Assembly: GCA_964558645.1 (NCBI GenBank)
Contig: CAZLEV010000008.1
Span: 32,001-96,000, forward strand
Length of the DNA stretch: 64,000 nt
DNA from: an uncultured archaeon
Lineage (GTDB): Archaea; Asgardarchaeota; Thorarchaeia; Thorarchaeales; Thorarchaeaceae
Direction: 5' to 3'
The notes beneath the pieces were generated by a model. It did not search any database, was not told where the DNA came from, and saw only the letters and a program-made list of their open reading frames with translations. Positions 2,753-46,572 of this stretch are shown piece after piece; positions within the stretch are counted from its first letter, which is position 1; each line of letters begins with the position of its first letter. Position numbers and translations under genes: made by a program.

Positions 2753-4306
2753 TCAGTGCCCGGAGACGGGCGCCTTCTCTCTCTTATGGTCCTGCAGTAT
2801 CAAGTAGGCTAGACCCCCCATGTAGGCTGACTTCATTCTCTCTATTTTATTCTCTTCACTAACGACATCATAGATTCCCATCTTGGCGTAGGCATCAACA
2901 GCTTCTTCAGCAATGAATCTTGAAATCCATGGAAGCTCCATCACTTGCCCCCCCAGGTCTAAGAACTCAAGTATCTGAAACGCGGTCTCAGAGAAGATTG
3001 CCTCCGCGAATCTGTCCCTATCCTGTTCCAAGAATGTCTGTTGCTGCTTTATCATTTCAGAAGCAGCTGTGAAGACAAGCTTTAGATCATCAATAAGCGC
3101 CTGCTCGAAACCTGCGGTTCTCGATTTCACCTTGATTTTCATCTCAAGGTTCGCAAGTGAGTCGGTGTATCGTTTCTCAGGTGAGACATAAGGTTTCCAT
3201 CCGCTCTTTGCCTTTTTCTTGATAGTCTGAAGCTCCTCGTAGAGCAGACTCCCTCGATTCTTCTGTTCTGCCAGTCTTACTGCCAGAGACCTTCTGTTTC
3301 CCCTCAATATGTCAATGAAGTTTTTCAAGTCTTCATTGCTCCCTCTTCCCTTTCGTGCACGGAGGGTTTCGTCATAGTGGGTATCTATCTCGTCAAGTAC
3401 ATACATGAACATGTTCACGAGAGAAGGCGGCTCGGAGAGCTTCGCCAACTCCTCTGTCAATAATCTACCAAAGTGAAGATCTTCGATTAGCCTGTACGCT
3501 ATTTCTGCAATTGTAGCCAGATGTCTGCATGCAGTTTCACTTCCGATGAGGGGCCAAGCAAAGGGCTTTCGGGCCCCATACCCGCCAATTGCGTTCTTCA
3601 GGGCAGTCTTCACGTGGTATATGAGTATGTATCCTGTTACTTCTCTCGACAGGTCATCCAGTTTCATGGTGAGGGTTCTGTCAAAATCCACTCTCAATCC
3701 CGTTGCTGTCATCATCAGAAGTGCTATCAGATGTGGAATCCTACCAAGGGTGACTTCATTATCGGTGTCAAAACCTCTTAATGCGTCACTGATTGTGAAG
3801 AGCGGGCAATCCACGTTTCTCAATTGTATCTCGTGTTTGATTCTGGCTTGTAGCCTTAGCCGCGACTCCCTGCTCTCTAACAGGGCCCTGACAAATGGCT
3901 CGATGGGTTGAGCTGGCAGTTCCGATGGTCCCGCAGTCATCGCCACCACGTTCTTTGGCAGCATCATAATCCAAAGCGTGGAAACGGATGCAAGGACTGC
4001 AGCTTCAACTACTTCTTGCCCTCGCATGTTGTCTGATGGAATCCTCGGTTTGAATCCGAGCCAGCCGGGAAGGTTCACTAGGAACTCAACTTGTTCATCA
4101 TCATTCAATGCGCGTGAAAGCAGACTGCTCTTGATATAGTCGTAGAAGCCCACATACTCGGCTTGGTCCTTTGGCTTTCTAAGGAGTTCTTCTCTCTCTG
4201 TTAGGCTTCTCACATCGTCTTCCAGAATCTCCTCTATGACCCTTGTCTTCCAAGAGTATCGCATGTTGTCAACTACAGTGCTAACAACATCATCAATGGG
4301 ATTCAT
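2753..4306 (-). CDS. Hypothetical protein, predicted largely alpha-helical (517 aa)
   Basis: Long ORF with normal composition; overlaps the upstream ORF by 4 nt (ATGA coupling). Confidence 0.8.
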   Translation of the reverse strand: MNPIDDVVSTVVDNMRYSWKTRVIEEILEDDVRSLTEREELLRKPKDQAEYVGFYDYIKSSLLSRALNDDEQVEFLVNLPGWLGFKPRIPSDNMRGQEVVEAAVLASVSTLWIMMLPKNVVAMTAGPSELPAQPIEPFVRALLESRESRLRLQARIKHEIQLRNVDCPLFTISDALRGFDTDNEVTLGRIPHLIALLMMTATGLRVDFDRTLTMKLDDLSREVTGYILIYHVKTALKNAIGGYGARKPFAWPLIGSETACRHLATIAEIAYRLIEDLHFGRLLTEELAKLSEPPSLVNMFMYVLDEIDTHYDETLRARKGRGSNEDLKNFIDILRGNRRSLAVRLAEQKNRGSLLYEELQTIKKKAKSGWKPYVSPEKRYTDSLANLEMKIKVKSRTAGFEQALIDDLKLVFTAASEMIKQQQTFLEQDRDRFAEAIFSETAFQILEFLDLGGQVMELPWISRFIAEEAVDAYAKMGIYDVVSEENKIERMKSAYMGGLAYLILQDHKREKAPVSGH

Positions 4307-5466
4307 TGATCCGCCTCCTGTGAGAAAAGAAGATCAATGATCTCTTCTAGCGACGGCCTGATTCCAATCTCTGATTCCATGAAGCTGTAGGCTTCGAGTA
4401 TCGCCTGTTCGATGTCAACTTCTTCTCCGGTTCCCGATAGCTTAGAGAATGAAAGCCGTCTGAGCTCCAGTCCTAGGTCAATCTCTTCTGGGCATTCGAT
4501 GCCTTTCAAGTCTGTGAGGTCAAGGATGCCCTCAAGACTTCTGTAGCTAAGGTCAACGATGGTGCCCTTAGGATGCTTTCTGTTTCTCAAGTAGATTCTG
4601 AAGACAGGACGCAACCCATTCTTGTCAATATCATCGCAGAGATTCATTATTCGGCCGGCGACGCTAGCTCCCGACACATATGCTCGCTTCAAATCCTCTA
4701 GTTGGACCTTGTCAGCGAGCGTGATAGCAAGGTCTGTTTCATAACTGTAGTCGATTTCTCTTACGGAAGTGGCCCCGATGACAACATCCGTTTCTCTCTC
4801 AACCTCTTGAAGGAGACTGGCCCGGAACTTGCCTAGGGTATCCAGATTCATCTTGACTTTCTGTGGTTCACCATCCGTGTCAACAATGAGGCCCATCTCC
4901 ACATCGAAACTATGTACGTCTTCTGGGCGGAAGCTTGTTAGCGTCATTCCCAGAGCCTCTTGCTGGTCGACCTCTATCAGAACACCGTCTACTGATGTCA
5001 TGTGGCGGGAGCAGTAGAACCGACCCGGCAGAAAAGCATGCAGCTCCGGAGTTTCCGTGTGGGCTTCCATGGATTTCAGGAGTTGGTCCTCTCCTCCGCT
5101 TGCTAATGGCTGCGGCGATGATTCTGTTTTGTCGCAGCCCGAGAGTATTGCGCTATCTTCAGAACATGGAGTAGACACGGACTGAAGTTCGACGGTGTTA
5201 CCATGGGCTTGAGGCTCAAGAATAATACTATCAGTGTGATTTGAGAACTCTATGTCCGAGTCATCGGGAACCTTGCTCATCAGGTCCTCTGTTCCCGCTT
5301 GGAAATAATCTCTGTCAAAAGGGATAGGCATGGAAAAACCGACACCTTGGAAGTAACCGAGGTCGGATATTCCGATGATGTACTCCTCTTCCGGGAGAAC
5401 GCTCTCCTGTATCTCTACCAGTCTCAGAGTCCTCTGCTTCGGTATATACACAGTGCCTTCACCCAC
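4303..5466 (-). CDS. Hypothetical acidic protein (387 aa)
   Basis: Long ORF coupled to the 517-aa ORF; no recognised motif. Confidence 0.75.
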   Translation of the reverse strand: MGEGTVYIPKQRTLRLVEIQESVLPEEEYIIGISDLGYFQGVGFSMPIPFDRDYFQAGTEDLMSKVPDDSDIEFSNHTDSIILEPQAHGNTVELQSVSTPCSEDSAILSGCDKTESSPQPLASGGEDQLLKSMEAHTETPELHAFLPGRFYCSRHMTSVDGVLIEVDQQEALGMTLTSFRPEDVHSFDVEMGLIVDTDGEPQKVKMNLDTLGKFRASLLQEVERETDVVIGATSVREIDYSYETDLAITLADKVQLEDLKRAYVSGASVAGRIMNLCDDIDKNGLRPVFRIYLRNRKHPKGTIVDLSYRSLEGILDLTDLKGIECPEEIDLGLELRRLSFSKLSGTGEEVDIEQAILEAYSFMESEIGIRPSLEEIIDLLFSQEADQ

Positions 5467-10147: not shown

Positions 10148-11992
10148 TTAGATGAGCAGTACTGTGGCGGCCGACAGCAAGAATGTGAGTCCTGCAGCGC
10201 CCAATCCCACTCGCTTTGCTATACGGGCAGCCTCGACAATGTCTTGAGTAAGAATATCAAATGCTTTCTCCCCGAATACTCTCAACTCCTTCGCCTGGCC
10301 GAATGCCATCCCTACCTCTACAGGTCTCAGCTTTTCCCGTGCCTTCGTGGTGGCTGTAATGATTGAATCCAGGATTTCGTCAGGTTTGTGTCTCCCGATG
10401 GGTGGATAGCCGCTGCTTGACAGTGAGATTGCATTGACAACGTGGGTGTCCGTAGTCGTTAGTTCCACTTTCTCGAATCCCTGTTCCTTGATAATGCTGA
10501 TTGCTCTCTCTCTGTAACCCGGCTCCATATTGTTACCGTCGATGAACAACAGGACGGACTCTGTCTCTCCCACTCTCAACACTAGGGCCACTATTCCGCC
10601 AGGGCCCAGACCATCTTTGAGGTCTATGCCATCGGGCGTTACTCTGTATATCCCGGCGCTCACCTCATGATGTGGCCCGTTAAAAGTAGAGAATGCTGCG
10701 CTTGAAACTGCACCAACATATTCATCTGCCTCAGGGTCACCCCTCATGACCGAGACTGCCTCATCATCTATGCAGTTATGTGCGTCCACAATAGAGACCT
10801 GATTGATAGACTGGAGTCTGCTCCTCACCATTTCGGCCGCATCCATTCCCACACTTAGAGAGATATCATCGGTGAACTGTGGAGCGCTGGTGGTGATGCA
10901 CAGGGCGTTATCACCCACAAAGAGTGTCCAGACCTTGAACTTACCAAGATCTGTCCAGTGAGGCCCTGAAACCTTTCCGACTGTCTCAGCCTCTCTCACA
11001 AGTCTGTCAATCTCTGACAGGATGATTGGAATGTCTTCTTTCGTTGTGAGGTTCTGATGATGAGTGCAAGTTCCGTGCATCACAAAGGCAGGAACTCCAT
11101 GATGTTTGCGGATATGAGCAATGATCTCGCTTGGAAGGCCGCTACTGCCGATGTCCCTGAATGGGCCCGGATGTATGTATAAAACTACTCCAACAGCGAA
11201 CAACTTGCCCTCTGACTTCAGAACCATGACCTCCACAGGAACATCCTGTTTGGTGTGGATTTGGGTGAGCGTTCGTTCTAGCGGTTCAGGGTTGCCTATC
11301 AGATAGTCGTATCCGAAGGCTCTCAAGAGGGCCGGACCATCTATACCCAGGTCTCGTTCGAAGGGTCTACTGACAGATCTGAATATCCAATAGACCGAAG
11401 CAGACGCAACCCCGTACATAAGAAGCACTCCCGGAATCCAGAATGCCGGCAGAGATGGGAACGTGTCCGTATAACTCTGAAGAAACAAGGTGAGTGAGAA
11501 CCAGGTAAGTGGGAATACCAATGCCGCGGCTAGGTTGCGGAGTGCATGATGGTCACTCAGACCCGTGACAAGGAATGCGAACATCATGTATCCGAGCGTC
11601 ATGCCAAGAATCAACAATCGTACTGTGAAGTAGTCCATGCCAAGAATCGCATCTATAGACGCTCCGATGACACCGAAACCCAACCACAGTAGGGTGCCGA
11701 ACTGGGTTGCACCAAAGGTCCTGCGCGGATCGAGTGGTGACCCTTCCTTTCTCACAAGGAGATAGAGGATAGCTGAGCTTAGGAAGACGGTCACGCTGAA
11801 GATTGCTGTATTGTGAAAGAAAGAATCGATTAACGTACTACCTGGTACTACTTGGGCCCTGAAGAATGATATGAGAAGACTTGCCAGGACAATCATGCCC
11901 AGAATCCTCACGAGGATCCCCGGGAAGGTTGGAAGTTGCCATACTTTGGAGTAGAGTCCCACTGTTTCCTTGACCTTCGCCTTTTCGCCCAT
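10148..11992 (-). CDS. DUF2070 family membrane protein
   Basis: N-terminal TM helices; IHPGPF, HGTCTH, VDAHN, DGNNM and TTDTH motifs. Likely start is the ATG at 11992 (track 12091). Confidence 0.85.
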   Translation of the reverse strand: MGEKAKVKETVGLYSKVWQLPTFPGILVRILGMIVLASLLISFFRAQVVPGSTLIDSFFHNTAIFSVTVFLSSAILYLLVRKEGSPLDPRRTFGATQFGTLLWLGFGVIGASIDAILGMDYFTVRLLILGMTLGYMMFAFLVTGLSDHHALRNLAAALVFPLTWFSLTLFLQSYTDTFPSLPAFWIPGVLLMYGVASASVYWIFRSVSRPFERDLGIDGPALLRAFGYDYLIGNPEPLERTLTQIHTKQDVPVEVMVLKSEGKLFAVGVVLYIHPGPFRDIGSSGLPSEIIAHIRKHHGVPAFVMHGTCTHHQNLTTKEDIPIILSEIDRLVREAETVGKVSGPHWTDLGKFKVWTLFVGDNALCITTSAPQFTDDISLSVGMDAAEMVRSRLQSINQVSIVDAHNCIDDEAVSVMRGDPEADEYVGAVSSAAFSTFNGPHHEVSAGIYRVTPDGIDLKDGLGPGGIVALVLRVGETESVLLFIDGNNMEPGYRERAISIIKEQGFEKVELTTTDTHVVNAISLSSSGYPPIGRHKPDEILDSIITATTKAREKLRPVEVGMAFGQAKELRVFGEKAFDILTQDIVEAARIAKRVGLGAAGLTFLLSAATVLLI

Positions 11993-12141
11993 TTCTTCTA
12001 TCTCCGATTTCAGACTGCTCGACTCAGCCTGTCTTATAGAGATTCCCGTAATCCTGAAACTGGGCACCGCATCAGCAGCTTTATATCGCATTCGATAATG
12101 AACGCGTCAAGAATTATCGTATTCGATATTATCATGAATGG

Positions 12142-12669
12142 ATGGTTGCGATGTCGCCAGACTGTGAATGCCCTGAGGGAAGATTACCCCATGCTGTACC
12201 GCGGGGATTGCTCAGATTCGTGATTCTGAAGCTGTTGGAGTCACAAGAGCTGTCTGGTACAGGCATTGCGGACATCCTTGAGGAACGTAGTAAGGGTGCG
12301 TGGCGACCAAGCCCCGGCTCTACCTATCACTTGCTGTCGGACCTTCTAGAGCGGGGGCATATTGAGGAAGCCAGGACCGAGGGTCGAACCATCTTCTACC
12401 GCCTATCCAATGCGGGTTCAGATGCACTAGACAACCTGTATGACCAGAAGAAGACACTGGACAAGCGAGCTGCTGTTGGGCCTATGCTCTGGCTCTCGGT
12501 TCTTGATCCAGAAGACAGAGTTCAAGCGCAGCTCCATCACTTGGATGGAGTAACAGAACGGCTGGCAGATACGTTCTCGCACCTCGATGAGGACGAGAGG
12601 GCGGCGCACAGAGATGAACTCAGGACAATCTACAAACGTCTATCCAAGATTATCAAAGACACACAATAA
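12142..12669 (+). CDS. PadR family transcriptional regulator
   Basis: RGLLRFVILKLL...WRPSPGSTY wHTH motif; directly upstream of the ABC exporter genes. Confidence 0.9.
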   Translation: MVAMSPDCECPEGRLPHAVPRGLLRFVILKLLESQELSGTGIADILEERSKGAWRPSPGSTYHLLSDLLERGHIEEARTEGRTIFYRLSNAGSDALDNLYDQKKTLDKRAAVGPMLWLSVLDPEDRVQAQLHHLDGVTERLADTFSHLDEDERAAHRDELRTIYKRLSKIIKDTQ

Positions 12670-12684
12670 CCACGAGGTATCGCC

Positions 12685-14529
12685 ATGACAGAAGACAATA
12701 ATGAACGAAACTCCGCTTTCCGCTACATGCTTGGGGGACTGGCTCGAAATCCTGGAGTCATCATTGGAGCCCTGATTCTCACTGTTATCTCAGCATTCAT
12801 CATGGCTCTGCCAAATGTGCTTCTGGGACAGGCCGTCAACATTGTCACTACCGCAGGTTTCACCGCAGATTTCGTCAACCTTGTCATAGAGATTGCTCTT
12901 CTAGCACTCGTCTACATGGGCATGTACTTCGTGGTCGGATATGCTTGGGCCGTTGTGACCCTGAGATGGGAACGCGATGCACGACAGGACTTCTTTGAGG
13001 CTCTACAAGAGTTCAGCATGACCTTCCATGATGTCATTGATAGCAAGAGATTGCTCTCGGTTGCCATGCAGGATATCAACTGGGTACGCCTCTCACTGAA
13101 TCCTGCTCTCCGCAATCTGGCATATAGTATTGCATCTTTCGGAATAACGGCCCTGTTCTTGATGTCCTATGATCTAACACCGGGACTGGCAGGTCTCCTT
13201 AGCTTGGGCGGAGTTCCTATTCCAGTGTTTACGTTGATTATGGCTATTGGCTCACCACTATATCTGTGGTTTGCCTACCAGTATGCAAACGCCGTTGAGC
13301 CAGTTCGCCGAGCCCGGTCCGAACAGATGGAGAATCTCACTTCAGTGTCGCAGGGTGTATTCCGGGGCATAGAAGTAGTTCGGGCTTTTGGGAAGGAGGC
13401 GAGCGAGAAGGACAAGTTTCAGAGAGTTAGCAATGAATACAAGGAAATGGTGACTCAGGAGGGCAGACTGGCTGCGTTCTATATTCCCGCCTTGGTTCTC
13501 ATCGCAATGACGACCTTATCTTTCTTCTATGGAGGTTACGCAGTGCTGGTCGGTGCGTTGGATGTTGGTACACTCACGTCTGTTCTTGCTCTTCTGCTAT
13601 CTCTTCAGGGTTTCAATTTCATGTTACCTAGGATGTTGCTGATGCTGCGAGGTGGTTACGTGAATGCCCAGAGGATTGTCAAGATTCTCAACTGGGAGGA
13701 TCCAATGGAAGAACCCCAAGAAGAGGCAACTGGTTTGGATTGGGGAAACGATATCATCTTCGATGCTGTGAGTTTCAAGTACACCTCTGATAATGGGAAC
13801 AGTGACCACTATGCATTGAAGGATCTCAACATTACGATTCCCGGCGGTTCAAGAGTGGCTCTTATTGGTGGTCCTGGCGGCGGAAAGAGCACAGTACTCA
13901 AGCTCCTGCTTCGGTTATATGACCCTGACGAGGGTCGTGTTCTCGTCGATGGGGTTGACTTACGAAATGTTAAGACTTCCACAGTTCGTGACCATGTGGG
14001 GCTTGTTGAGCAGGACATCTTCCTTTTCCGGATGACCGTCAAGGAGAATATTGCTTTCGGCAATTCTGAGGCTTCCCAGGAAGTAGTTGTTGAGGCTGCG
14101 AAACGAGCGCAAGCTCATGAGTTCATTGAGCAGCTCCCCAAAGGATACGATTCAATGATTGGTGAACGAGGGATGACATTGAGCGGAGGACAGCGGCAGC
14201 GGTTAGCGATTGCACGGGCCATTATTCAGGATCCCCAGATTCTTCTCCTCGACGACTCTGTGAGTGCAGTAGATGCACAGACCGAGTACAAGCTTAGGCA
14301 AGCTCTGGATGAGGTCATGAGCGGTCGAACCAGCATTACCGTCACACAGCGCCTCAGAACCCTCTTGGAATCTGATCTAGTGATTATGCTTGATAAGGGA
14401 GAACTGGTTGCAGCCGGTCGCCACGAGGAGCTTCTGAGGGCATCAGAAGAATACCGTCTGATATTCGAAAAGCTACCCGGAGCTGAAGCACTTCTCAAAG
14501 GCGTTACCGTTCGCGGAGGTGCCTCATAA
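12685..14529 (+). CDS. ABC exporter half-transporter (TMD+NBD), degenerate subunit
   Basis: GGPGGGKS and LSGGQ; Walker B is LLLDDS and the switch is TQRL (E to D, H to Q). Confidence 0.93.
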   Translation: MTEDNNERNSAFRYMLGGLARNPGVIIGALILTVISAFIMALPNVLLGQAVNIVTTAGFTADFVNLVIEIALLALVYMGMYFVVGYAWAVVTLRWERDARQDFFEALQEFSMTFHDVIDSKRLLSVAMQDINWVRLSLNPALRNLAYSIASFGITALFLMSYDLTPGLAGLLSLGGVPIPVFTLIMAIGSPLYLWFAYQYANAVEPVRRARSEQMENLTSVSQGVFRGIEVVRAFGKEASEKDKFQRVSNEYKEMVTQEGRLAAFYIPALVLIAMTTLSFFYGGYAVLVGALDVGTLTSVLALLLSLQGFNFMLPRMLLMLRGGYVNAQRIVKILNWEDPMEEPQEEATGLDWGNDIIFDAVSFKYTSDNGNSDHYALKDLNITIPGGSRVALIGGPGGGKSTVLKLLLRLYDPDEGRVLVDGVDLRNVKTSTVRDHVGLVEQDIFLFRMTVKENIAFGNSEASQEVVVEAAKRAQAHEFIEQLPKGYDSMIGERGMTLSGGQRQRLAIARAIIQDPQILLLDDSVSAVDAQTEYKLRQALDEVMSGRTSITVTQRLRTLLESDLVIMLDKGELVAAGRHEELLRASEEYRLIFEKLPGAEALLKGVTVRGGAS

Positions 14530-16613
14530 TGTCTCACACAAGGGGTGGCCCGGGCAGATGGACTCGAGAGAAACGCAAACGAAGCCGTTCAGTCGGTCTT
14601 CTGCTCCGGCGAATGCTTGGATACTTGGGGGCCTTCAAGAAGATAGTTGCTATAGCCGCGGTGCTATCACTGATGGGAACCTTCTTTGCTGTCATTGATC
14701 CCTTGGTCTTGAGATGGGCGATAGACGAGGTCTTCAGTGCCACAACGACCATGAATGTCCTAATCTATTTGGTGATGCTCTATCTCGTACTCAAAGTTGT
14801 ATCCTGGATACTCAATAGCAGCAATACGTGGATACTTGCCAGTGCGCAAGCAGGACTAGTTCAAGAGGTGCAGTCCGATCTCTACGCCCATCTTGTCGAG
14901 GCAGACCTTTCCTATCACAAGTCTGAGGAGAGCGGAAACGTGACTTCCAGAGTCACATCCGATACGGATGCTCTTGGTATTGGCATCCAGGCAATCGTCG
15001 ATTTCAGTAGCCAGATCCTGTTGATTGGCGGGACCTTTGTTCTCCTGTGGACCACTTCTCCAACCATAGCATTGACTTCACTAGTTGTGATTCCGGGTGT
15101 TGTCTTCATCGCAGTTCTCTTCGGAACTGTAGGTCAGCGTATCATGCTCGCGTCGCGAAGAGCCTATGGTGCAGTATCCGGAAGGATTGCTGAAGACTTG
15201 AGTGGAGTTCAAATTGCAAAAGCATTCAACCGTGAAGATGAGTTGGCAGAAGAGCTGCAGGAACTTAACGAAGAGGCATATCATCATGGCTTCCGCTTCA
15301 TGATATTGATGAGCGCGATGCAGCCTCTTATGCGGTCAATGGGTCAGATTGGCATAGCTGCTGTCCTCTTTGTGGGTGGATCTATGGTCACCGGTACCAC
15401 ACCGCTTCTCACCGTGGGTGAGCTCTTTCTGGGTGTAATGCTTGTCAATCGGTTCATGTGGCCGATTCTCGGTCTTGCGCTGATGGCAACAGAGGTCCAG
15501 GCATCATTGGCCGCCATGGATCGAATATCTGATGTCCTAGAGTCAAAACGAGCTATTACGGACGAGCCGGATGCCATTCCCCTGAAACCTGAAAGCGATG
15601 GTATCCGATTCGAGGATGTGACCTTCTCCTATGTTGAAGGAGAAGAAGTGTTGAAAAACGTCACATTTGAAATCGAAGCGGGCAAGACTGTCGCTGTGGT
15701 GGGGCATACCGGGGCCGGTAAGACCACAGTTGCAGCACTGATCAATAGGTTCTATGACCCGGAAGCGGGTCGGATACTCATCGGTGACCAAGACCTTCGG
15801 AAAGTGACTCTTGAATCTCTGCATCAGAATGTCTCTCTCATTCCACAGATACCGTATCTCTTCGATGGCACAATAATGGAGAACATCCGTTACGGAAACC
15901 CCGATGCAACAGATGAGCAGATCAAGGAGATATGCAGACTTATCGGAGCAAGTGAGTTCATTGAAGTACTTGCTGATGGTTACAACACACTCGTGATGGA
16001 GAACGGCAAGAACCTAAGTGCTGGTCAAAGGCAGATGATCACCATCGCTCGAACTATGCTTGCAGACCCGAAGATTCTCATTCTGGATGAAGCCACCAGT
16101 CGCCTTGATGCCTACAGTGAGGCTCTGGTGCAGGAAGCTCAAGAGATACTCTTCTCAGACAGGACAACAATGGTCATAGCCCATCGCCTCACCACAATCG
16201 CCCACGCATCCAGGATTCTAGTCTTTGAGGACGGTGAGATTGTGGAGCGGGGAACACACAAGGAGCTGCTCGACCAAGACGGAGTATTTCGTAGACTCTA
16301 TCAAAGCTACTATGCCCATCAGGGTATTGACGAGCTGACAGAGGAGCTTGCCAGGGTCGCTGAGAAAGAGGTCTCCCGATACGGTAGCAAAGAAGGCTCT
16401 CTCATAGCGCATGGAGGTATGAACCCTCAAAAAGGAGGTATGGCTAGCATGTTGAGTGGAACTGGACCCGACGGTGAACGGATTGTCGAGATGAGCGAAA
16501 TGCTGCCCCCAGATTTGATTGAAGAGATTCATGACAGCGATGGTAAGATATCTCCTGACCTCAAAGAGAGAATCAGGAAGGCTCTGGAAGACACTCCAAA
16601 GGAGGCCGAATAA
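14529..16613 (+). CDS. ABC exporter half-transporter (TMD+NBD), consensus subunit
   Basis: GHTGAGKT, LSAGQ, ILDEAT and IAHRL motifs; partner of the preceding gene in a heterodimeric exporter. Confidence 0.93.
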   Translation: MSHTRGGPGRWTREKRKRSRSVGLLLRRMLGYLGAFKKIVAIAAVLSLMGTFFAVIDPLVLRWAIDEVFSATTTMNVLIYLVMLYLVLKVVSWILNSSNTWILASAQAGLVQEVQSDLYAHLVEADLSYHKSEESGNVTSRVTSDTDALGIGIQAIVDFSSQILLIGGTFVLLWTTSPTIALTSLVVIPGVVFIAVLFGTVGQRIMLASRRAYGAVSGRIAEDLSGVQIAKAFNREDELAEELQELNEEAYHHGFRFMILMSAMQPLMRSMGQIGIAAVLFVGGSMVTGTTPLLTVGELFLGVMLVNRFMWPILGLALMATEVQASLAAMDRISDVLESKRAITDEPDAIPLKPESDGIRFEDVTFSYVEGEEVLKNVTFEIEAGKTVAVVGHTGAGKTTVAALINRFYDPEAGRILIGDQDLRKVTLESLHQNVSLIPQIPYLFDGTIMENIRYGNPDATDEQIKEICRLIGASEFIEVLADGYNTLVMENGKNLSAGQRQMITIARTMLADPKILILDEATSRLDAYSEALVQEAQEILFSDRTTMVIAHRLTTIAHASRILVFEDGEIVERGTHKELLDQDGVFRRLYQSYYAHQGIDELTEELARVAEKEVSRYGSKEGSLIAHGGMNPQKGGMASMLSGTGPDGERIVEMSEMLPPDLIEEIHDSDGKISPDLKERIRKALEDTPKEAE

Positions 16614-17390
16614 CTAGTTCGCAACCTCGAGTCTTCCGGCTATACTAATAGAGCCACCCATGAGGATGTATACCTCTGTTGCTATGAGCCTTGAGAGAAT
16701 TGATGTAGGGTCGCTAGAGAGGACACACCACGAGAAATACTGGACGATGAACAGAAGCGACGCAATGAAGGAGAAACCAAACGGAAGAACCAACAATCCA
16801 CTTCTGAATGTCCACAACAGAACAGCAAGGATTCCTACTATCATCAGGATACCAACGCCTACGGGAATACACACTGCAATGTCTATGAGAGTTCTACCCG
16901 GGGAGACGATTGCACCGAATATCTGAGTCAGGAGAACTCCTGAAACTGAAACAAGTGTTATCAGGAGCAGTATGTCTCTCGGTTTCGCTGCAGCTATCGT
17001 GTTCCGGCAGACAATGAGATACCTAGTGGTGCCTATTCCCCATAGAAGAACACCCGGGATGAGGAGGAGGGATATTGTGAAATAGAACTCCTGGCCCCTT
17101 GGCATGCTTGATATGATTGTCGTTCCAATCTCAGCAAGGGTCAGGACGATAAGCCCCAAGGCGAGAAGAAGATTCATCGAGTTGAATCTATCTTCGAGTC
17201 CATAATCGTTTCGTGCAAATCTGATGAGGCCCAGAACTCCCGGTACCAGAGCTGCAATCGGAGCAGAGATGTTCAGAAACATAATTGGGCTACCGACAGA
17301 TTCCGACGAATCCAAGGCAAGGACGATGATGAGCATCGATGCCGCGAGCAGGACGAACACAGACACAACATAGACCATCTCCTTTTTCAA
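16614..17390 (-). CDS. Polytopic membrane protein (about 7-8 TM), unknown function
   Basis: Successive hydrophobic helices. Confidence 0.75.
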   Translation of the reverse strand: MKKEMVYVVSVFVLLAASMLIIVLALDSSESVGSPIMFLNISAPIAALVPGVLGLIRFARNDYGLEDRFNSMNLLLALGLIVLTLAEIGTTIISSMPRGQEFYFTISLLLIPGVLLWGIGTTRYLIVCRNTIAAAKPRDILLLITLVSVSGVLLTQIFGAIVSPGRTLIDIAVCIPVGVGILMIVGILAVLLWTFRSGLLVLPFGFSFIASLLFIVQYFSWCVLSSDPTSILSRLIATEVYILMGGSISIAGRLEVAN

Positions 17391-17469
17391 TATCGTCCCA
17401 TCCTTATCTCTCTGAGCAGAACTGGTTGAATTTGTTTCTTGTGTTCAGCCTCTATCATCTCATAGGTTT

Positions 17470-18672
17470 CTAAGACGGTTGAGCTGTGAGTCTTTCCCAC
17501 TCCACCTCATAATTCAAGGTGGGAAATTGTCTCTCTACATCATCTCTGGTGTGTTCTAGTATCTGATTGATTGGATTCACTCCAGTGTAATCACTTATCC
17601 TCTTTGTGATGAACTGGAGCAATGCTCTGAAGCCCTCACTCAGATATCCGGGAGATAGTTTGTCTCGCATAGTTGCTGATGTCAGAGAGCTCCTTATCTC
17701 CACATCTACTCCCTCTTCGAGGTCTACCAAGTGCAACCAAGAATACTGCCCTGTCAGTTTTCCCCTTGAATCATAGAAGACTTTTTTGGCAATGCCGAAG
17801 CCAAGAATCCTTGCGCAATGTTTCAAGACGGATTGGAGAACCGATGAGTACAGGACCAGCCTGGCCTGTGCGGGAGATACTCTTTCTATTGCCTGTTGTT
17901 CAGCCAATTGAGCAATCTCATCGAGGAAGACTCTCATATCTGCTGTCTTGACACGTTCGGCGGCAATAGAGAGTGGGGTTTCTCCGTCGAGCTGAGAGAC
18001 GGCTTTCTCTGTTTCCCACGAGACTGATGTCGGCCCTCTCTCAGACTTCATCAGGGATGTCGCCTGGTAGATGTCGTCAGGCCTTACCGGCGTCGACAGA
18101 GAGATGGTCTTCTCCCAGAGTGCCTCAGCCACCAGATCCAGTGCAACGTCCAGTGGTATCTCAAGAAACTCTGCCGCCTCTTTCACGCTTATCCTGTCGG
18201 GAAGGAGTTTGAGGAAGGCTGTGACTTCGGGGTCGCTGGTAATCATGTCCCAGTTCAGTTTTGGTCGGATGATTGAGTCGGGGTCTATCTGGTCCCGAAT
18301 CAACTCCTCAATTACGTGCTTCTCAAATCGAGTATACACAGCCAAGTCCATGTCAACCCACCTGAGCAGGCCAAACATATCCTCGAATCTCCTGACAAGT
18401 TTCCGGAGTTTCTCCCTAAGGTCTTCGGAATCACGTCGGACCGAGAGTGCCCCCAGTGCCCATTCACCGAACTCAACAACTATCTTGTAGTCGGTTCCTT
18501 CGAAGGCTCTGGCCTTAGATGTGATAGAGTTTGTGGCCTCATCGAAGAACGAGGTCATGGCTACAATGAACGACGATATGAGGTGTGGATCAAAGATGCC
18601 TTGGGCGAAATCTTTGTGGTACATACAGACGCCCGTTTCGCGTTTCATGATGTACAGGCTCCTTGCATCCAT
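17470..18672 (-). CDS. Longin-domain protein with tandem winged-helix domains (NPRL2/NPRL3-like architecture)
   Basis: The N-terminal LYIMKRETGVCMYHKDF...DPHLISSFIVAMTSFFDE...YKIVVEFG segment fits a longin fold. It is followed by two wHTH-like segments (LLPDRISVKEAAEFLEIPLDVALDLV and SQLDGETPLSIAAERV). Confidence 0.7.
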   Translation of the reverse strand: MDARSLYIMKRETGVCMYHKDFAQGIFDPHLISSFIVAMTSFFDEATNSITSKARAFEGTDYKIVVEFGEWALGALSVRRDSEDLREKLRKLVRRFEDMFGLLRWVDMDLAVYTRFEKHVIEELIRDQIDPDSIIRPKLNWDMITSDPEVTAFLKLLPDRISVKEAAEFLEIPLDVALDLVAEALWEKTISLSTPVRPDDIYQATSLMKSERGPTSVSWETEKAVSQLDGETPLSIAAERVKTADMRVFLDEIAQLAEQQAIERVSPAQARLVLYSSVLQSVLKHCARILGFGIAKKVFYDSRGKLTGQYSWLHLVDLEEGVDVEIRSSLTSATMRDKLSPGYLSEGFRALLQFITKRISDYTGVNPINQILEHTRDDVERQFPTLNYEVEWERLTAQPS

Positions 18673-18834
18673 GTAACTCTCTCCGCTGGATTTGTTTCGT
18701 TATGCGGTCCCGTTCGAAACAACCATGTCCAGCTGTTTCAACTTTGCTGCTTTTGAGTATTCTACTGACGTATGTCAAGAAGAGGATATGTCAAGTTCCC
18801 AAGTGCTATAAGCAGAACTCCAGTTCTGCCCGGT

Positions 18835-19440
18835 ATGTCCGAAGAGCAGAACATCAATTGCCCAATATGCGGAACGGGCAGGCTCACCGTCAGCTCGATG
18901 TTGTATAGTGTTCCTTTCTTCAACGAGCTTGCTATGTTCACGATGAGATGCAACACTTGCAATTTCACACACAATGATGTCTTCTCTGCAGAGGACAGAC
19001 CACCAAGTAGATGGACTCTTCATGTGGGCAATGAGCGGCTTCTTCGGGTTCGCGTTGTACGTTCTAGTTCAGGAACCATCAGGATGCCGGAGTTTGGAAT
19101 CGTCATAGAACCTGGCCCCGGTGCTGATTCTTTCATCTCCAATGTTGAAGGAGTACTCTCCCGGACACGCCCTGTGGTCGAGACCGCTGTTCGATTCGCG
19201 GATAAACCTGAGGAGAAGGCCAGAGGGAGAGAGGTGATCGCTATGATTGACGAGGCGCTCGCGGGCAATCTCGAGTTCACTCTTGTCATCGAGGATCCAG
19301 TGGGCATTAGCGGCATTCTTCCGGAGGATATGTCGCTGGTTAGTTTTGACGAATTGACAGAAGAAGAGGCATCGAAACTCAGAGGGGCTCCTGGTTGGCT
19401 GGATACGGTTCGGGATGAGTATTCGGAGCGTAACGGTTAA
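18835..19440 (+). CDS. ZPR1 zinc-finger domain protein (archaeal single-module type)
   Basis: CPICG...VPFF...CNTCNF, RVVRSSSGTI, IEPGP, SNVEG and IEDPVG motifs. Likely ATG at 18835 (track 18772). Confidence 0.92.
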   Translation: MSEEQNINCPICGTGRLTVSSMLYSVPFFNELAMFTMRCNTCNFTHNDVFSAEDRPPSRWTLHVGNERLLRVRVVRSSSGTIRMPEFGIVIEPGPGADSFISNVEGVLSRTRPVVETAVRFADKPEEKARGREVIAMIDEALAGNLEFTLVIEDPVGISGILPEDMSLVSFDELTEEEASKLRGAPGWLDTVRDEYSERNG

Positions 19441-44528: not shown

Positions 44529-44948
44529 TTACCCAGAAACAGGCACATCGCGAAGGACAACCTTCTGAACTCCCGTTATCCCTTTCATCTTTTCCCTAAG
44601 CTTCTCAAGATCCATCTCCAGCTGCTGAGGTGTGAAATAGCATTCATAGTAGCACTGACTTGCTGATTGACATATCCCGCTCGTGAAGAGGATGTCCTCG
44701 AGTCCAGCACCTTCGAAAATCAGTGTCAGCTCCTCGAGAAAGCTCTTGCTCAGTTTGTCTATCTCGAGTTTGAGGTAGAGTACCTTGTCACTGTCAACGG
44801 GATATAACTTGACGTTCTTGTCCTTCATGACCAGGATGGCAAGACCGTATGGTTGACCAATCCCCTCTACGAAATCCGCGGGCAGCGTGATTGCGTTTCC
44901 CTTTTCTATTTTCATAACCCTTGCTTGTGTCATATCTGCCTTGGTCAT
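44529..44948 (-). CDS. Small protein with AbrB-like N-terminus and ACT-like C-terminus
   Basis: KIEKGNAITLP swapped-hairpin-like start; ferredoxin-like C-terminal half (LKLEI...ILFTSGIC...ITGVQKV). Confidence 0.55.
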   Translation of the reverse strand: MTKADMTQARVMKIEKGNAITLPADFVEGIGQPYGLAILVMKDKNVKLYPVDSDKVLYLKLEIDKLSKSFLEELTLIFEGAGLEDILFTSGICQSASQCYYECYFTPQQLEMDLEKLREKMKGITGVQKVVLRDVPVSG

Positions 44949-45027
44949 CTTGTTCCTTCTCCAGACTGAGGATAAACGTCATTGTCCTGTGATGATTATA
45001 TTTCTTGTGGGCAACTGGTTTGGCTAG

Positions 45028-46572
45028 TTATGACTTCCTTCTGAACCAACCCATTATCTCTCCTATCACGCCCCTATCCGGTTTTCTGAGTGTATGAAGC
45101 CTCCACTTATGTTTGTCAGGTTCGTAATACTCAAGAAAAGCACAGCCATCATCATCCTTCATTCTCTCCATCTCTTGGAGGCGTCCCATCAACCAAGCCT
45201 TTCTTGTTATCGGAACGTTGGAAGTGGTCATGTCGAAGAGATGCGGGTGTAAATCGAATACCAGGGCTCTTTCACTCATATACTCAAGTACACCCTGCGT
45301 GAGTGCCTCACTGATTGTCTCCCGATTTGTGTAGAATGATGCCGCCACTGACATGTTTGGGTGTTTCTCAGGAATATTCAGAGCGAACTTAAAAGAGCGA
45401 TTGAACTTTGAGAGGTGTGTTGCAGCATCGATAAAGAGAATGGTCTCGGGCTTCCCCTCGAATTCATCTTCTAATACTTCTGTTTCTACTCCTGTCAAAC
45501 GATCTTGGTCTTCTCTTTCTAACTCTCCATGGATGTCGCCAATCTCATCGTCCTCGATTACATCATCTCCGCGAGAATCTTTCTTTACTTCTGCTTCAGC
45601 GGCTGTTGGAGCCTTTCTCCTTCTCAGGTGAGGCGGTACATAGCCTACCTCTTCAACAAGATGCTGCAATATTAATGGTAGAAAGAGATCATAGAGTGTC
45701 CCTCTGGTTTCTGTGATCAGTAAGACAGGTTTGAAGGTCTCAACTGCCTCCTGAATTCCGGACTTGTATTTCGAGTCCTCGTCAAAGAATTTTCTCAGGT
45801 TCTCAACAGAGTAGCCCTCCTGTACCCGTGTCTCCCACTCCTCATATACTTCCTTCACTTCTTGCTTTCTTCGGTCCTTGAGGAGTCCCATGAACTTGCC
45901 GAGATACTTGACGCCTCTCGATACGGCAACTGTCGGACTGATGAATACAGTCATGAGGCCTACTGCCTCTCCTGCATATTCGCTGGCCTCAGTGCTTCTT
46001 ATCTTTCCCATGACTTCCTCTGTTAGAGAAGGAGGACCAAGCTTTTCGACCAGAACCTCATGCATTCCCTCAAAGTTCTCAAAGGACGCATCTGCAGGGC
46101 CTATGTCTTCCCCGACCGGGGATGCATCTGACAACACTTCGGCAAACACATTAGGTCGTTTTATCAACCATGCAAGAGGTATCCTGAAAGTCTGGTATCT
46201 GTGCAACCATTCGCGGTCTGAGTCCTTCGGTCCGAAATAGAACTTTTCAGCGTCAGGAAATGAATCGTCAAAGAGCTCCATGAACTGGTGGAATCCTTTT
46301 GGGGTGCTAAGCCCCATCTCAGCACTCTCTAACGAGTCCACCACGAAGACAAGTCCTGATTCTTTCTTCTTTGTGATCGAGGCCATAGTAAGCATGACCT
46401 GTTTGGGTGAGAGGTATAATAGATCGCTCTCTGCATAGGGTGCATCATAGAATGAAAATATCCCCAATCTCTTCCAAGGTCTATCCCGAAGCTTCTCGTG
46501 TGCCAAGTACGAGAACCACTCGTATCCACGCTTGTATCTGGGTATACTCATATCGATTTCAGACTCAGTCAT
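45028..46572 (-). CDS. Hypothetical protein (514 aa), possibly a degenerate HerA/FtsK-like P-loop protein
   Basis: Long ORF with a Walker-B-like PETILFIDAATHL and no intact Walker A. Confidence 0.7.
   Translation of the reverse strand: MTESEIDMSIPRYKRGYEWFSYLAHEKLRDRPWKRLGIFSFYDAPYAESDLLYLSPKQVMLTMASITKKKESGLVFVVDSLESAEMGLSTPKGFHQFMELFDDSFPDAEKFYFGPKDSDREWLHRYQTFRIPLAWLIKRPNVFAEVLSDASPVGEDIGPADASFENFEGMHEVLVEKLGPPSLTEEVMGKIRSTEASEYAGEAVGLMTVFISPTVAVSRGVKYLGKFMGLLKDRRKQEVKEVYEEWETRVQEGYSVENLRKFFDEDSKYKSGIQEAVETFKPVLLITETRGTLYDLFLPLILQHLVEEVGYVPPHLRRRKAPTAAEAEVKKDSRGDDVIEDDEIGDIHGELEREDQDRLTGVETEVLEDEFEGKPETILFIDAATHLSKFNRSFKFALNIPEKHPNMSVAASFYTNRETISEALTQGVLEYMSERALVFDLHPHLFDMTTSNVPITRKAWLMGRLQEMERMKDDDGCAFLEYYEPDKHKWRLHTLRKPDRGVIGEIMGWFRRKS

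What the first reader, a model, noticed from the sequence alone, without database searches (positions are those of the whole stretch)
17470..18672. Longin plus tandem winged-helix protein resembling GATOR1 subunits NPRL2/NPRL3
Seen: an N-terminal longin-like domain of about 120 aa, then two repeats of the pattern short strand - helix - (L/I)DG-type turn - HTH - strand (FLKLLPDRISVKEAAEFLEIPLDVALDLVAEALWEKTISL...DDIYQAT and AVSQLDGETPLSIAAERV...LAEQQAIERV), then an unassigned helical C-terminal domain. Established: NPRL2/3 are longin proteins with C-terminal winged helices that act as the Rag GTPase GAP upstream of TORC1, and Asgard archaea encode longin/roadblock proteins and Rag-like GTPases. 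Inference: this may be an archaeal relative of that architecture. I do not see an obvious counterpart of the NPRL2 arginine finger.
Basis: partly seen in the sequence, partly recalled or inferred. Interest (0 to 1): 0.72.

Follow-up and report, generated by a model that had tools for sequence, protein, structure and literature searches.

The report
Asgard NPRL2-like longin–winged-helix protein
This Thorarchaeota gene encodes a protein whose fold resembles the eukaryotic nutrient-signalling subunits NPRL2/NPRL3 (a longin domain followed by two winged helices); the resemblance is real, but the family was already described in 2020 and its function is still untested.

Summary
The 400-aa ORF at 17470..18672 (-) is a real, strongly conserved gene. 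About 205 homologues were found, almost all from Thorarchaeota.

When the post-longin region is folded alone (pLDDT 93), 14 of its 15 best PDB matches are NPRL2/Npr2/NPRL3 chains of GATOR1/SEACIT. Generic transcription-factor winged helices match only one WH, and less well. Both WHs are acidic, so DNA binding is unlikely.

There is no sequence-level match to the NPR2/NPR3 families. I found no arginine at the position I take to correspond to the NPRL2 finger, no GP motif in this subfamily, no DEPDC5 homologue and no Rag-type GTPase.

Liu et al. [quoted passage not shown]

Three points are new here:
- Two paralogous subfamilies co-occur in nearly every genome of the taxonomic family.
- This subfamily is followed by a 7-8-TM membrane-protein gene in 36 of 37 genomes.
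- The other subfamily sits inside two-component-system gene clusters.

GTPase regulation is inferred, not shown.

The parts
17470..18672 (-). Whole ORF, 400 aa plus stop (P0001). It is the subfamily-A member of the Asgard NPRL2-like longin/winged-helix family.
18283..18672 (-). Longin domain, residues 1-130. G14, R55 (subfamily A only), E67, G69, W71 and R86 are invariant or nearly so.
18061..18273 (-). Winged helix 1, residues 134-204. Net charge is -6 and the recognition helix is -3.
17881..18018 (-). Winged helix 2, residues 219-264, containing the invariant D229-G230 turn. Net charge is -5.
17473..17874 (-). C-terminal helical domain with a beta-hairpin, residues 267-400. It is shared by subfamilies A and B (W312 conserved) and has no assigned fold.
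16614..17390 (-). Co-directional downstream gene, 79 bp after the stop. It encodes a 258-aa protein with 7-8 predicted TM segments and no known family. It accompanies subfamily A in 36 of 37 genomes of the taxonomic family.
18772..19440 (+). Divergently transcribed ZPR1 zinc-finger homologue. It is the conserved upstream neighbour at all subfamily-A loci examined. This is context only; no functional link is shown.

Best explanation
The gene encodes a cytosolic, acidic protein that most likely does not bind DNA. It belongs to the Asgard 'NPRL2-like' family, which is centred on Thorarchaeota. The protein has a longin domain, two tandem winged helices arranged as in the post-longin part of the eukaryotic GATOR1 subunits NPRL2/NPRL3, and a lineage-specific helical domain.

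SHOWN: the folds, the domain order, the strong conservation, the acidic winged helices, a second paralogous subfamily (B) in nearly every genome that has this one, the tight pairing of this gene with a downstream polytopic membrane-protein gene, and the embedding of subfamily B in PAS-histidine-kinase/response-regulator clusters.

INFERRED: like other longin and roadblock proteins, it serves as a dimeric platform that binds and regulates a small Ras-superfamily GTPase. Whether it would act as a GAP, a GEF or a scaffold is open. The winged helices and the helical domain would act as protein-protein interfaces. The module would work at the membrane together with the co-encoded 7-8-TM protein, and possibly with the subfamily-B paralogue and two-component kinases.

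It is an architectural relative of NPRL2/3. It is not a demonstrated GATOR1 equivalent.

For: Tandem WH: the model has pLDDT 93. GATOR1/SEACIT chains fill Foldseek ranks 1-11 for the post-longin region, and they are the three best hits for the full-length model at E 1.3e-4 to 3.2e-4. All VIA alignments of 130 or more residues are to these chains. NPR2 and NPRL3 clusters are among the nearest ESM-Atlas shapes.

Literature: NPRL2/3 are a longin domain plus two or more wHTH repeats (PMC3747258). A family with this organisation occurs in most Thor and a few Loki MAGs (bioRxiv 10.1101/2020.10.19.343400). The taxonomic spread seen here is the same.

Charge: WH1 is -6, WH2 is -5 and the whole protein is -15.

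Paralogue: P0298 on G000:C1. In the window's taxonomic family, 42 of 43 genomes carry the family, mostly one A-type and one B-type match each.

Gene pair with the membrane protein: adjacent in 36 of 37 genomes across 16 genera, plus one genome from another family. The pair persists while other neighbours change.

Subfamily B lies beside PAS-HK/RR genes at 4 of 4 loci examined, with Arf/Ras GTPases nearby at 2 of them.

The genome encodes many Ras/Arf-like GTPases and roadblock proteins that could be partners.
Against: There is no sequence-level relationship to NPR2, NPR3 or HTH_NPRL3. The best PDB profile score to NPRL3 is E=1.4.

Subfamily A has no GP motif (it reads G14-V-C-M), and there is no Arg in the beta4-beta5 turn.

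No GTPase gene lies near the target, either in the window or at the three orthologous loci.

No Rag-type GTPase (G domain plus roadblock CTD) was seen among the Gtr1_RagA matches.

GTPase binding, dimerisation and membrane association are all untested.
Confidence: 0.6

Rival explanations
1. The architecture is convergent. The longin domain and the winged helices were joined by the extensive domain shuffling seen in Asgard archaea. The tandem-WH resemblance to NPRL2/3 would then reflect a common way of packing two WHs, not common descent. The protein would be a lineage-specific signalling adaptor with no special relation to GATOR1.
Against: The domain order is the same as in NPRL2/3. GATOR1/SEACIT chains from yeast and human rank first whether or not the longin domain is included. 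NPR2 and NPRL3 clusters are also found in a separate library of predicted structures. Liu et al. made the same assignment independently.
Confidence: 0.28
2. It is a wHTH transcription factor. The longin-like N-terminal domain would sense a ligand or partner, and the winged helices would bind DNA.
For: It has two wHTH domains. Faint HTH_45, HTH_47 and TrmB-type hits occur in a few relatives. Levine et al. noted that wHTH repeats might bind DNA.
Confidence: 0.07
3. The post-longin region is a PATAN/DUF4388-like output module, as in bacterial PatA-type regulators. PATAN genes are regularly found near MglA/MglB genes. On this reading the protein is the archaeal version of a prokaryotic roadblock-plus-PATAN polarity or signalling module, not a GATOR1 precursor.
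For: ESM-Atlas shape search: DUF4388/PatA_N clusters at TM 0.50/0.51 over 182 residues. Language-model neighbours of residues 129-400 are PatA_N clusters, score 0.81. PATAN is a protein-protein output domain linked to two-component systems and to MglA/MglB neighbourhoods (bioRxiv 10.1101/2021.06.11.447907). That parallels the context of subfamily B.
Against: The scores are at the level of a lead only: 0.81 is reached by a third of shuffled proteins. PatA_N is carried by only 11-27% of the members of three of the four clusters hit. The PatA_N HMM finds nothing in family members or in the genome at E<=1. No solved PATAN structure appeared among the PDB matches.
Confidence: 0.1

Closest known systems
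NPRL2 / NPRL3 (yeast Npr2 / Npr3), the longin subunits of GATOR1/SEACIT
   Same: An N-terminal longin domain is followed by tandem winged helices in the same order, and these chains are the best structural matches for both WHs together. Both occur as two paralogues per genome. The C-lobe is acidic and non-DNA-binding; the SEA-complex paper (PMC9646525) notes a negatively charged patch on the Npr3 C-lobe.
   Different: There is no detectable sequence similarity. The archaeal protein has an extra helical C-terminal domain of about 130 aa. No GP motif is present in this subfamily and there is no Arg in the beta4-beta5 turn. No DEPDC5/Iml1 homologue, no Rag-type GTPase and, according to Liu et al., no TOR kinase were found. 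The gene is paired with a polytopic membrane-protein gene.
Asgard 'NPRL2-like' protein family (asCOG annotation; Liu et al., bioRxiv 10.1101/2020.10.19.343400, Fig. 5c)
   Same: The domain organisation matches (longin plus an NPRL2-type C-terminal region). [quoted passage not shown] This is very probably the same family.
   Different: Identity could not be confirmed by accession, because the supplement is not held. The paper, as read here, does not mention the A/B split, the membrane-gene pairing or the acidic WHs.
FLCN-FNIP and C9orf72-SMCR8 longin GAP complexes, and their Heimdall-type 'FLCN/SMCR8 longin' relatives (PMC12290439)
   Same: All have a longin domain at the N-terminus of a multidomain GTPase regulator that works as a pair of paralogues.
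   Different: Those carry a DENN module after the longin domain, not winged helices. Their defining GP motif and arginine finger are not present in subfamily A. Subfamily B has G-x-A-P in 19 of 21 sequences.
Bacterial MglB (roadblock) / MglA and PATAN-domain regulators
   Different: The topology here is longin, not roadblock. There is no PatA_N sequence signal. No GTPase gene is adjacent to the target.

Membership tests
NPRL2/NPRL3 (GATOR1/SEACIT longin subunits) | N-terminal longin domain | tested here: met
NPRL2/NPRL3 (GATOR1/SEACIT longin subunits) | Two or more winged HTH repeats after the longin domain (PMC3747258), packed as in the solved complexes | tested here: met
NPRL2/NPRL3 (GATOR1/SEACIT longin subunits) | Match to the family's sequence profiles (Pfam NPR2 PF06218, NPR3 PF03666, HTH_NPRL3 PF24064) | tested here: not met
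   No hit at E<=1 for the target or for 35 relatives. NPR2 and NPR3 HMMs find nothing in the genome, although the controls were silent too. The profile against PDB gives NPRL3 at E=1.4. A profile-profile comparison (HHpred) could not be run.
NPRL2/NPRL3 (GATOR1/SEACIT longin subunits) | Catalytic arginine finger on a longin loop (NPRL2 Arg78 / Npr2 Arg84) | tested here: inconclusive
   The beta4-beta5 turn reads E-F-G-E-W with no Arg in 29 of 29 sequences. R55 is invariant in subfamily A (Lys in B), and R86 is conserved in 49 of 50 sequences, but both lie elsewhere. The structural equivalence to Arg78 rests on my reading of the topology, not on a superposition. Residues 44-60 of the model have low confidence.
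NPRL2/NPRL3 (GATOR1/SEACIT longin subunits) | GP motif just before beta2 of the catalytic longin domain (PMC12290439) | tested here: not met
   Subfamily A reads T-G14-V-C-[ML]-Y, so the Gly is invariant but no Pro follows. Subfamily B reads G-x-A-P-Y in 19 of 21 sequences.
NPRL2/NPRL3 (GATOR1/SEACIT longin subunits) | Heterodimer with a paralogue through the longin domains and C-lobes | not testable with these tools
   A paralogue exists (P0298) and co-occurs in nearly all genomes of the taxonomic family. Binding itself was not established.
NPRL2/NPRL3 (GATOR1/SEACIT longin subunits) | Third subunit DEPDC5/Iml1 and a Rag-type GTPase substrate (G domain plus C-terminal roadblock) | tested here: inconclusive
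   The IML1 HMM finds nothing in the genome, but it rang in no control either. All Gtr1_RagA matches are Ras-type GTPases of 171-201 aa or multidomain Arf/Roc proteins without a recognised roadblock CTD. The genome is 92.8% complete.
Asgard NPRL2-like family (Liu et al.) | [quoted passage not shown] | tested here: met
   Architecture. Hits are named Thorarchaeota, with a few named Lokiarchaeota, Sifarchaeia or Hermodarchaeota. 42 of 43 genomes of the window's family carry it, against only shorter relatives elsewhere in the phylum. Identity by accession was not testable.
DNA-binding wHTH transcription factors (MarR/TrmB/PadR-like) | Basic recognition helix or wing; match to an HTH family profile | tested here: not met
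   The recognition helices carry -3 and -2 and the WH domains -6 and -5. No HTH family passes threshold, and only single faint hits occur among 35 relatives.
PATAN / DUF4388 (PatA_N) | Match to PF14332; PATAN fold | tested here: inconclusive
   There is no HMM match at E<=1 in the relatives or in the genome. Shape and language-model neighbours exist only at the level of a lead: TM 0.50, score 0.81.

The most novel reading that the evidence does not exclude
The two paralogues (A, encoded next to a 7-8-TM membrane protein, and B, encoded among PAS histidine kinases and response regulators) form a membrane-associated heterodimeric longin platform. This platform would switch a Ras/Arf-like GTPase in response to a sensed signal. 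It would be an archaeal forerunner of the GATOR1-type longin regulators, wired into two-component signalling instead of TOR and using catalytic chemistry other than the NPRL2 arginine finger.
Probability: 0.12. Interest if true: 0.85.

Novelty: already known. Interest (0 to 1): 0.42.

Why it matters
If the family really regulates small GTPases, it would be a tractable prokaryotic model for how the eukaryotic longin-based GTPase regulators (GATOR1, folliculin, C9orf72-SMCR8) arose. It would also show what they did before TOR and lysosomes existed.

The family and its NPRL2-like reading are already published, so the value here is in sharpening the hypothesis. This work defines two co-occurring paralogues, a candidate membrane partner, candidate upstream kinases and a short list of invariant residues (G14, R55, E67/G69/W71, R86) to mutate. 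It also shows that the canonical GAP signatures are missing from this subfamily. Function should therefore not be transferred from GATOR1 by annotation.

Tried and rejected
- Pfam and NCBIfam scans of the target gave no family.
- Sequence and profile searches of PDB gave nothing significant. The profile hits were to ankyrin repeats and a designed HTH repeat, caused by the 'LDGETPLSIAAE' and HTH motifs, and I read them as motif-level chance.
- Co-folding of the target with its subfamily-B paralogue (complex prediction, alignments A5 and A4) returned no verdict (score 0.02, mark 0.32, controls not run). It counts neither for nor against binding.
- Expression: no RNA holder was listed for window 16600-18800.
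- The search for longer fused forms (701-2000 aa) scored nothing at E<=1e-3, which the tool itself rates as weak evidence.
- NPR2, NPR3 and IML1 HMMs found no match in the own genome, but they rang in no control genome either, so this is uninformative.
- The PatA_N HMM found no match in the own genome at E<=1.
- The supplement of Liu et al. is not held, and the Nature version is not held. I therefore could not tie the family to an asCOG number.
- Model coordinates are not exposed to scripts, so I could not measure whether G14, R55 and the E67-W71 turn cluster in space. My statement that they lie at the same end of the sheet is topological inference.
- A profile-profile comparison with NPR2/NPR3 was not possible, because no eukaryotic NPRL sequences were obtainable through the tools.

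Full report
**The object.** An ATG-to-stop ORF of 400 codons occupies 17470..18672 on the minus strand. It has no Pfam or NCBIfam family and no sequence match in PDB. It is clearly a gene. The word-indexed search found 205 homologues, all about 400 aa. The best 120 are 51-98% identical, and those that carry a name are called Thorarchaeota, with single ones labelled Sifarchaeia, Hermodarchaeota or Promethearchaeota. A 28-sequence alignment has 68% mean column identity and 70 invariant columns. The window lies on contig C8 of a 3.63-Mb, 92.8%-complete genome.

**Checking the observation.** A full-length AlphaFold2 model (pLDDT 72.5) gave three parts: an N-terminal alpha/beta domain, a well-predicted winged helix, and a helical C-terminus. 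Residues 196-265 were poor. The exhaustive profile search added a second set of full-length relatives at 20-26% identity. Using these, I refolded residues 129-400 alone from a 55-sequence alignment. This model has pLDDT 93.0 and pTM 0.83. It shows two winged helices (protein residues 134-204 and 219-264) followed by a helical domain with a small hairpin (267-400).

**Is it NPRL2/3-like?**
- For the full-length model, the three best Foldseek PDB hits are 8adl_S (SEA complex), 9h4q_T (SEAC wing) and 9o5a_H (KICSTOR-GATOR1). They score E 1.3e-4 to 3.2e-4 over 327-352 columns, with low TM because the domains are oriented differently.
- The decisive test removes the longin domain. For residues 129-400 alone, ranks 1-11 and 14 of the top 15 are GATOR1/SEACIT chains (E 2.8e-3 to 0.23, probability 0.90-1.00). 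FAM91A1 is the only other family among them. Everything below is at E above 1 with probability 0.1 or less.
- On chain identity: one search identifies 8fw5_C and 6ces_M as NPRL3. I take the 362-370-residue chains to be NPRL2 from their size.
- The ESM-Atlas shape search lists NPR2 and NPRL3 clusters at TM 0.42-0.51.
- Levine et al. define NPRL2/3 as a longin domain plus two or more wHTH repeats (PMC3747258). The SEA-complex paper describes a longin N-lobe and a C-lobe that both heterodimerise (PMC9646525).

**Already in the literature.** Liu et al. [quoted passage not shown] They add that NPRL2-like longin domains are often fused to two-component-system domains, and that no TOR kinase homologue exists in Asgard archaea. 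"NPRL2-like longin domain" is used as an asCOG category in later work (PMC9834061). The taxonomic pattern I find is the same. I could not confirm identity by accession.

**What is missing relative to GATOR1.** A 2025 survey defines the GAP-type longins by a GP motif before beta2 and a neighbouring arginine finger (PMC12290439).
- In this subfamily the loop reads T-G14-V-C-[ML]-Y. The Gly is invariant but no Pro follows.
- The paralogous subfamily reads G-x-A-P-Y in 19 of 21 sequences.
- The beta4-beta5 turn is E-F-G-E-W with no arginine.
- R55 is invariant in subfamily A (Lys in B), and R86 is conserved in 49 of 50 sequences, but both lie elsewhere.
- From the strand order I infer that G14, the segment before beta3 (which contains R55) and the E67-W71 turn all lie at the same end of the sheet. 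That is the end where GAP longins have their pocket. Without coordinates this is inference only.
- The IML1/DEPDC5 profile finds nothing, but its controls were silent too.
- All nine Gtr1_RagA matches in the genome are Ras-type GTPases of 171-201 aa or multidomain Arf/Roc proteins. None has the Rag layout.

**New context.**

(i) *Two paralogues.* The genome has a second full-length member on contig C1 (P0298, 430 aa). It belongs to a subfamily (B) that shares all four domains with ours (A) at about 25% identity. In a 201-genome sample of the phylum, 42 of 43 genomes of the window's taxonomic family carry the family. Most have one A-type and one B-type match. Elsewhere only shorter relatives of about 290-310 aa appear, and these lack the C-terminal domain.

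(ii) *A membrane partner gene.* Subfamily A is followed on the same strand, about 100-210 bp downstream, by a gene for a protein of about 230-260 aa with no known family. Hydropathy gives 7-8 TM segments for the window's copy. Comparing the coordinates, the two genes are adjacent in 36 of the 37 genomes of the family where both were located, spanning 16 genera. G134 is the exception. They are also adjacent in G048, which belongs to another family. The membrane protein is only 27-29% identical between loci where the target is 54-57% identical. The pair persists where other neighbours differ. The membrane protein was not found in the other 157 sampled genomes of the phylum apart from G048. Relatedness among these genomes inflates such counts, and adjacency does not prove interaction.

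(iii) *Subfamily B context.* B lies beside PAS histidine kinases and response regulators at 4 of 4 loci examined. Arf/Ras-type GTPases lie within about 2-3 kb at two of them.

(iv) *Acidic winged helices.* Both WHs and their recognition helices are net acidic, and the protein as a whole carries -15. This argues against a DNA-binding role and fits protein-protein WHs.

**Mechanism.** The best-supported reading is a non-DNA-binding longin platform with protein-interaction winged helices, acting in a membrane-proximal signalling module.
- Shown: the folds, conservation, paralogy, synteny and charge.
- Inferred from what longin and roadblock domains do elsewhere (PMC3747258): binding and regulation of a small GTPase, and dimerisation, possibly A with B.
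- Whether it would be a GAP, a GEF or a scaffold is open. The canonical GAP signature is absent from A and only half-present in B.

**Rivals.**
- Convergent domain shuffling: no sequence signal, a generic longin domain, an extra domain, and varied partners in relatives.
- A wHTH transcription factor: disfavoured by charge.
- A PATAN-like output module: lead-level shape and language-model neighbours, with no HMM support.

**Verdict.** The family is already described, so novelty is low. Interest is moderate, because the family is experimentally untouched and this analysis supplies concrete partners and residues to test.

Noticed in passing
G000:C17:55221-56677 (loci L004/L006), with a roadblock gene at G000:C17:53676-53942: The same genome has two adjacent genes of about 290 aa, each matching the longin+WH part of the family profile (E 2e-12 and 9e-8). 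A Robl_LC7 gene lies about 1.3 kb away. This is a tandem pair of short longin-WH paralogues and could form another heterodimeric platform.
   Followed up: partly
L035:5001-6631 (GCA_054388075.1 contig JBQSKY010000023.1): A 370-aa distant longin-WH relative (P0179) is followed after 2 bp by a TRAPP/Bet3-family gene (PF04051). Other relatives (P0185, P0213) fuse longin-WH to a V4R domain. This suggests that part of the superfamily works with TRAPP-like partners.
   Followed up: partly
P0187 (714 aa) and P0215 (1128 aa): The family's longin domain also occurs fused upstream of a KaiC-type ATPase domain. Many other proteins of 700-750 aa carry it at their C-terminus with no recognisable Pfam domain.
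   Followed up: partly
window 17950-18010 (-), protein residues 222-241: The WH2 turn 'LDGETPLSIAAE' mimics the ankyrin-repeat consensus. The family profile therefore hits latrotoxin and ankyrin chains in PDB (E 0.009 to 1.7), and an 1878-aa protein with 12 matched stretches (P0192). I read this as motif-level coincidence, because the model shows a winged helix here.
   Followed up: yes
G081, G098, G161, G176, G197 (same taxonomic family as the window): These genomes have one or two subfamily-B matches but neither a subfamily-A match nor the membrane-protein gene. G098 is 96% complete. The A/membrane pair may have been lost as a unit, or one contig may be missing.
   Followed up: no
window 12142-16613 (+) and 10148-12091 (-): A PadR regulator, two ABC_membrane/ABC_tran exporter genes and a DUF2070 membrane protein lie on the other side of the membrane-protein gene. 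This block is syntenic at two of the three orthologous loci and absent from the third.
   Followed up: partly
window 2753-5466 (-) and 44529-46572 (-): Four sizeable ORFs (517, 387, 139 and 514 aa) have no Pfam family at the thresholds used.
   Followed up: no
window 18772-19440 (+): A ZPR1 zinc-finger homologue (TIGR00310, E 6e-47) is divergently transcribed from the target. The shared intergenic region is 99 bp, and this arrangement is kept at all orthologous loci examined. ZPR1 is otherwise a family shared by eukaryotes and archaea.
   Followed up: partly
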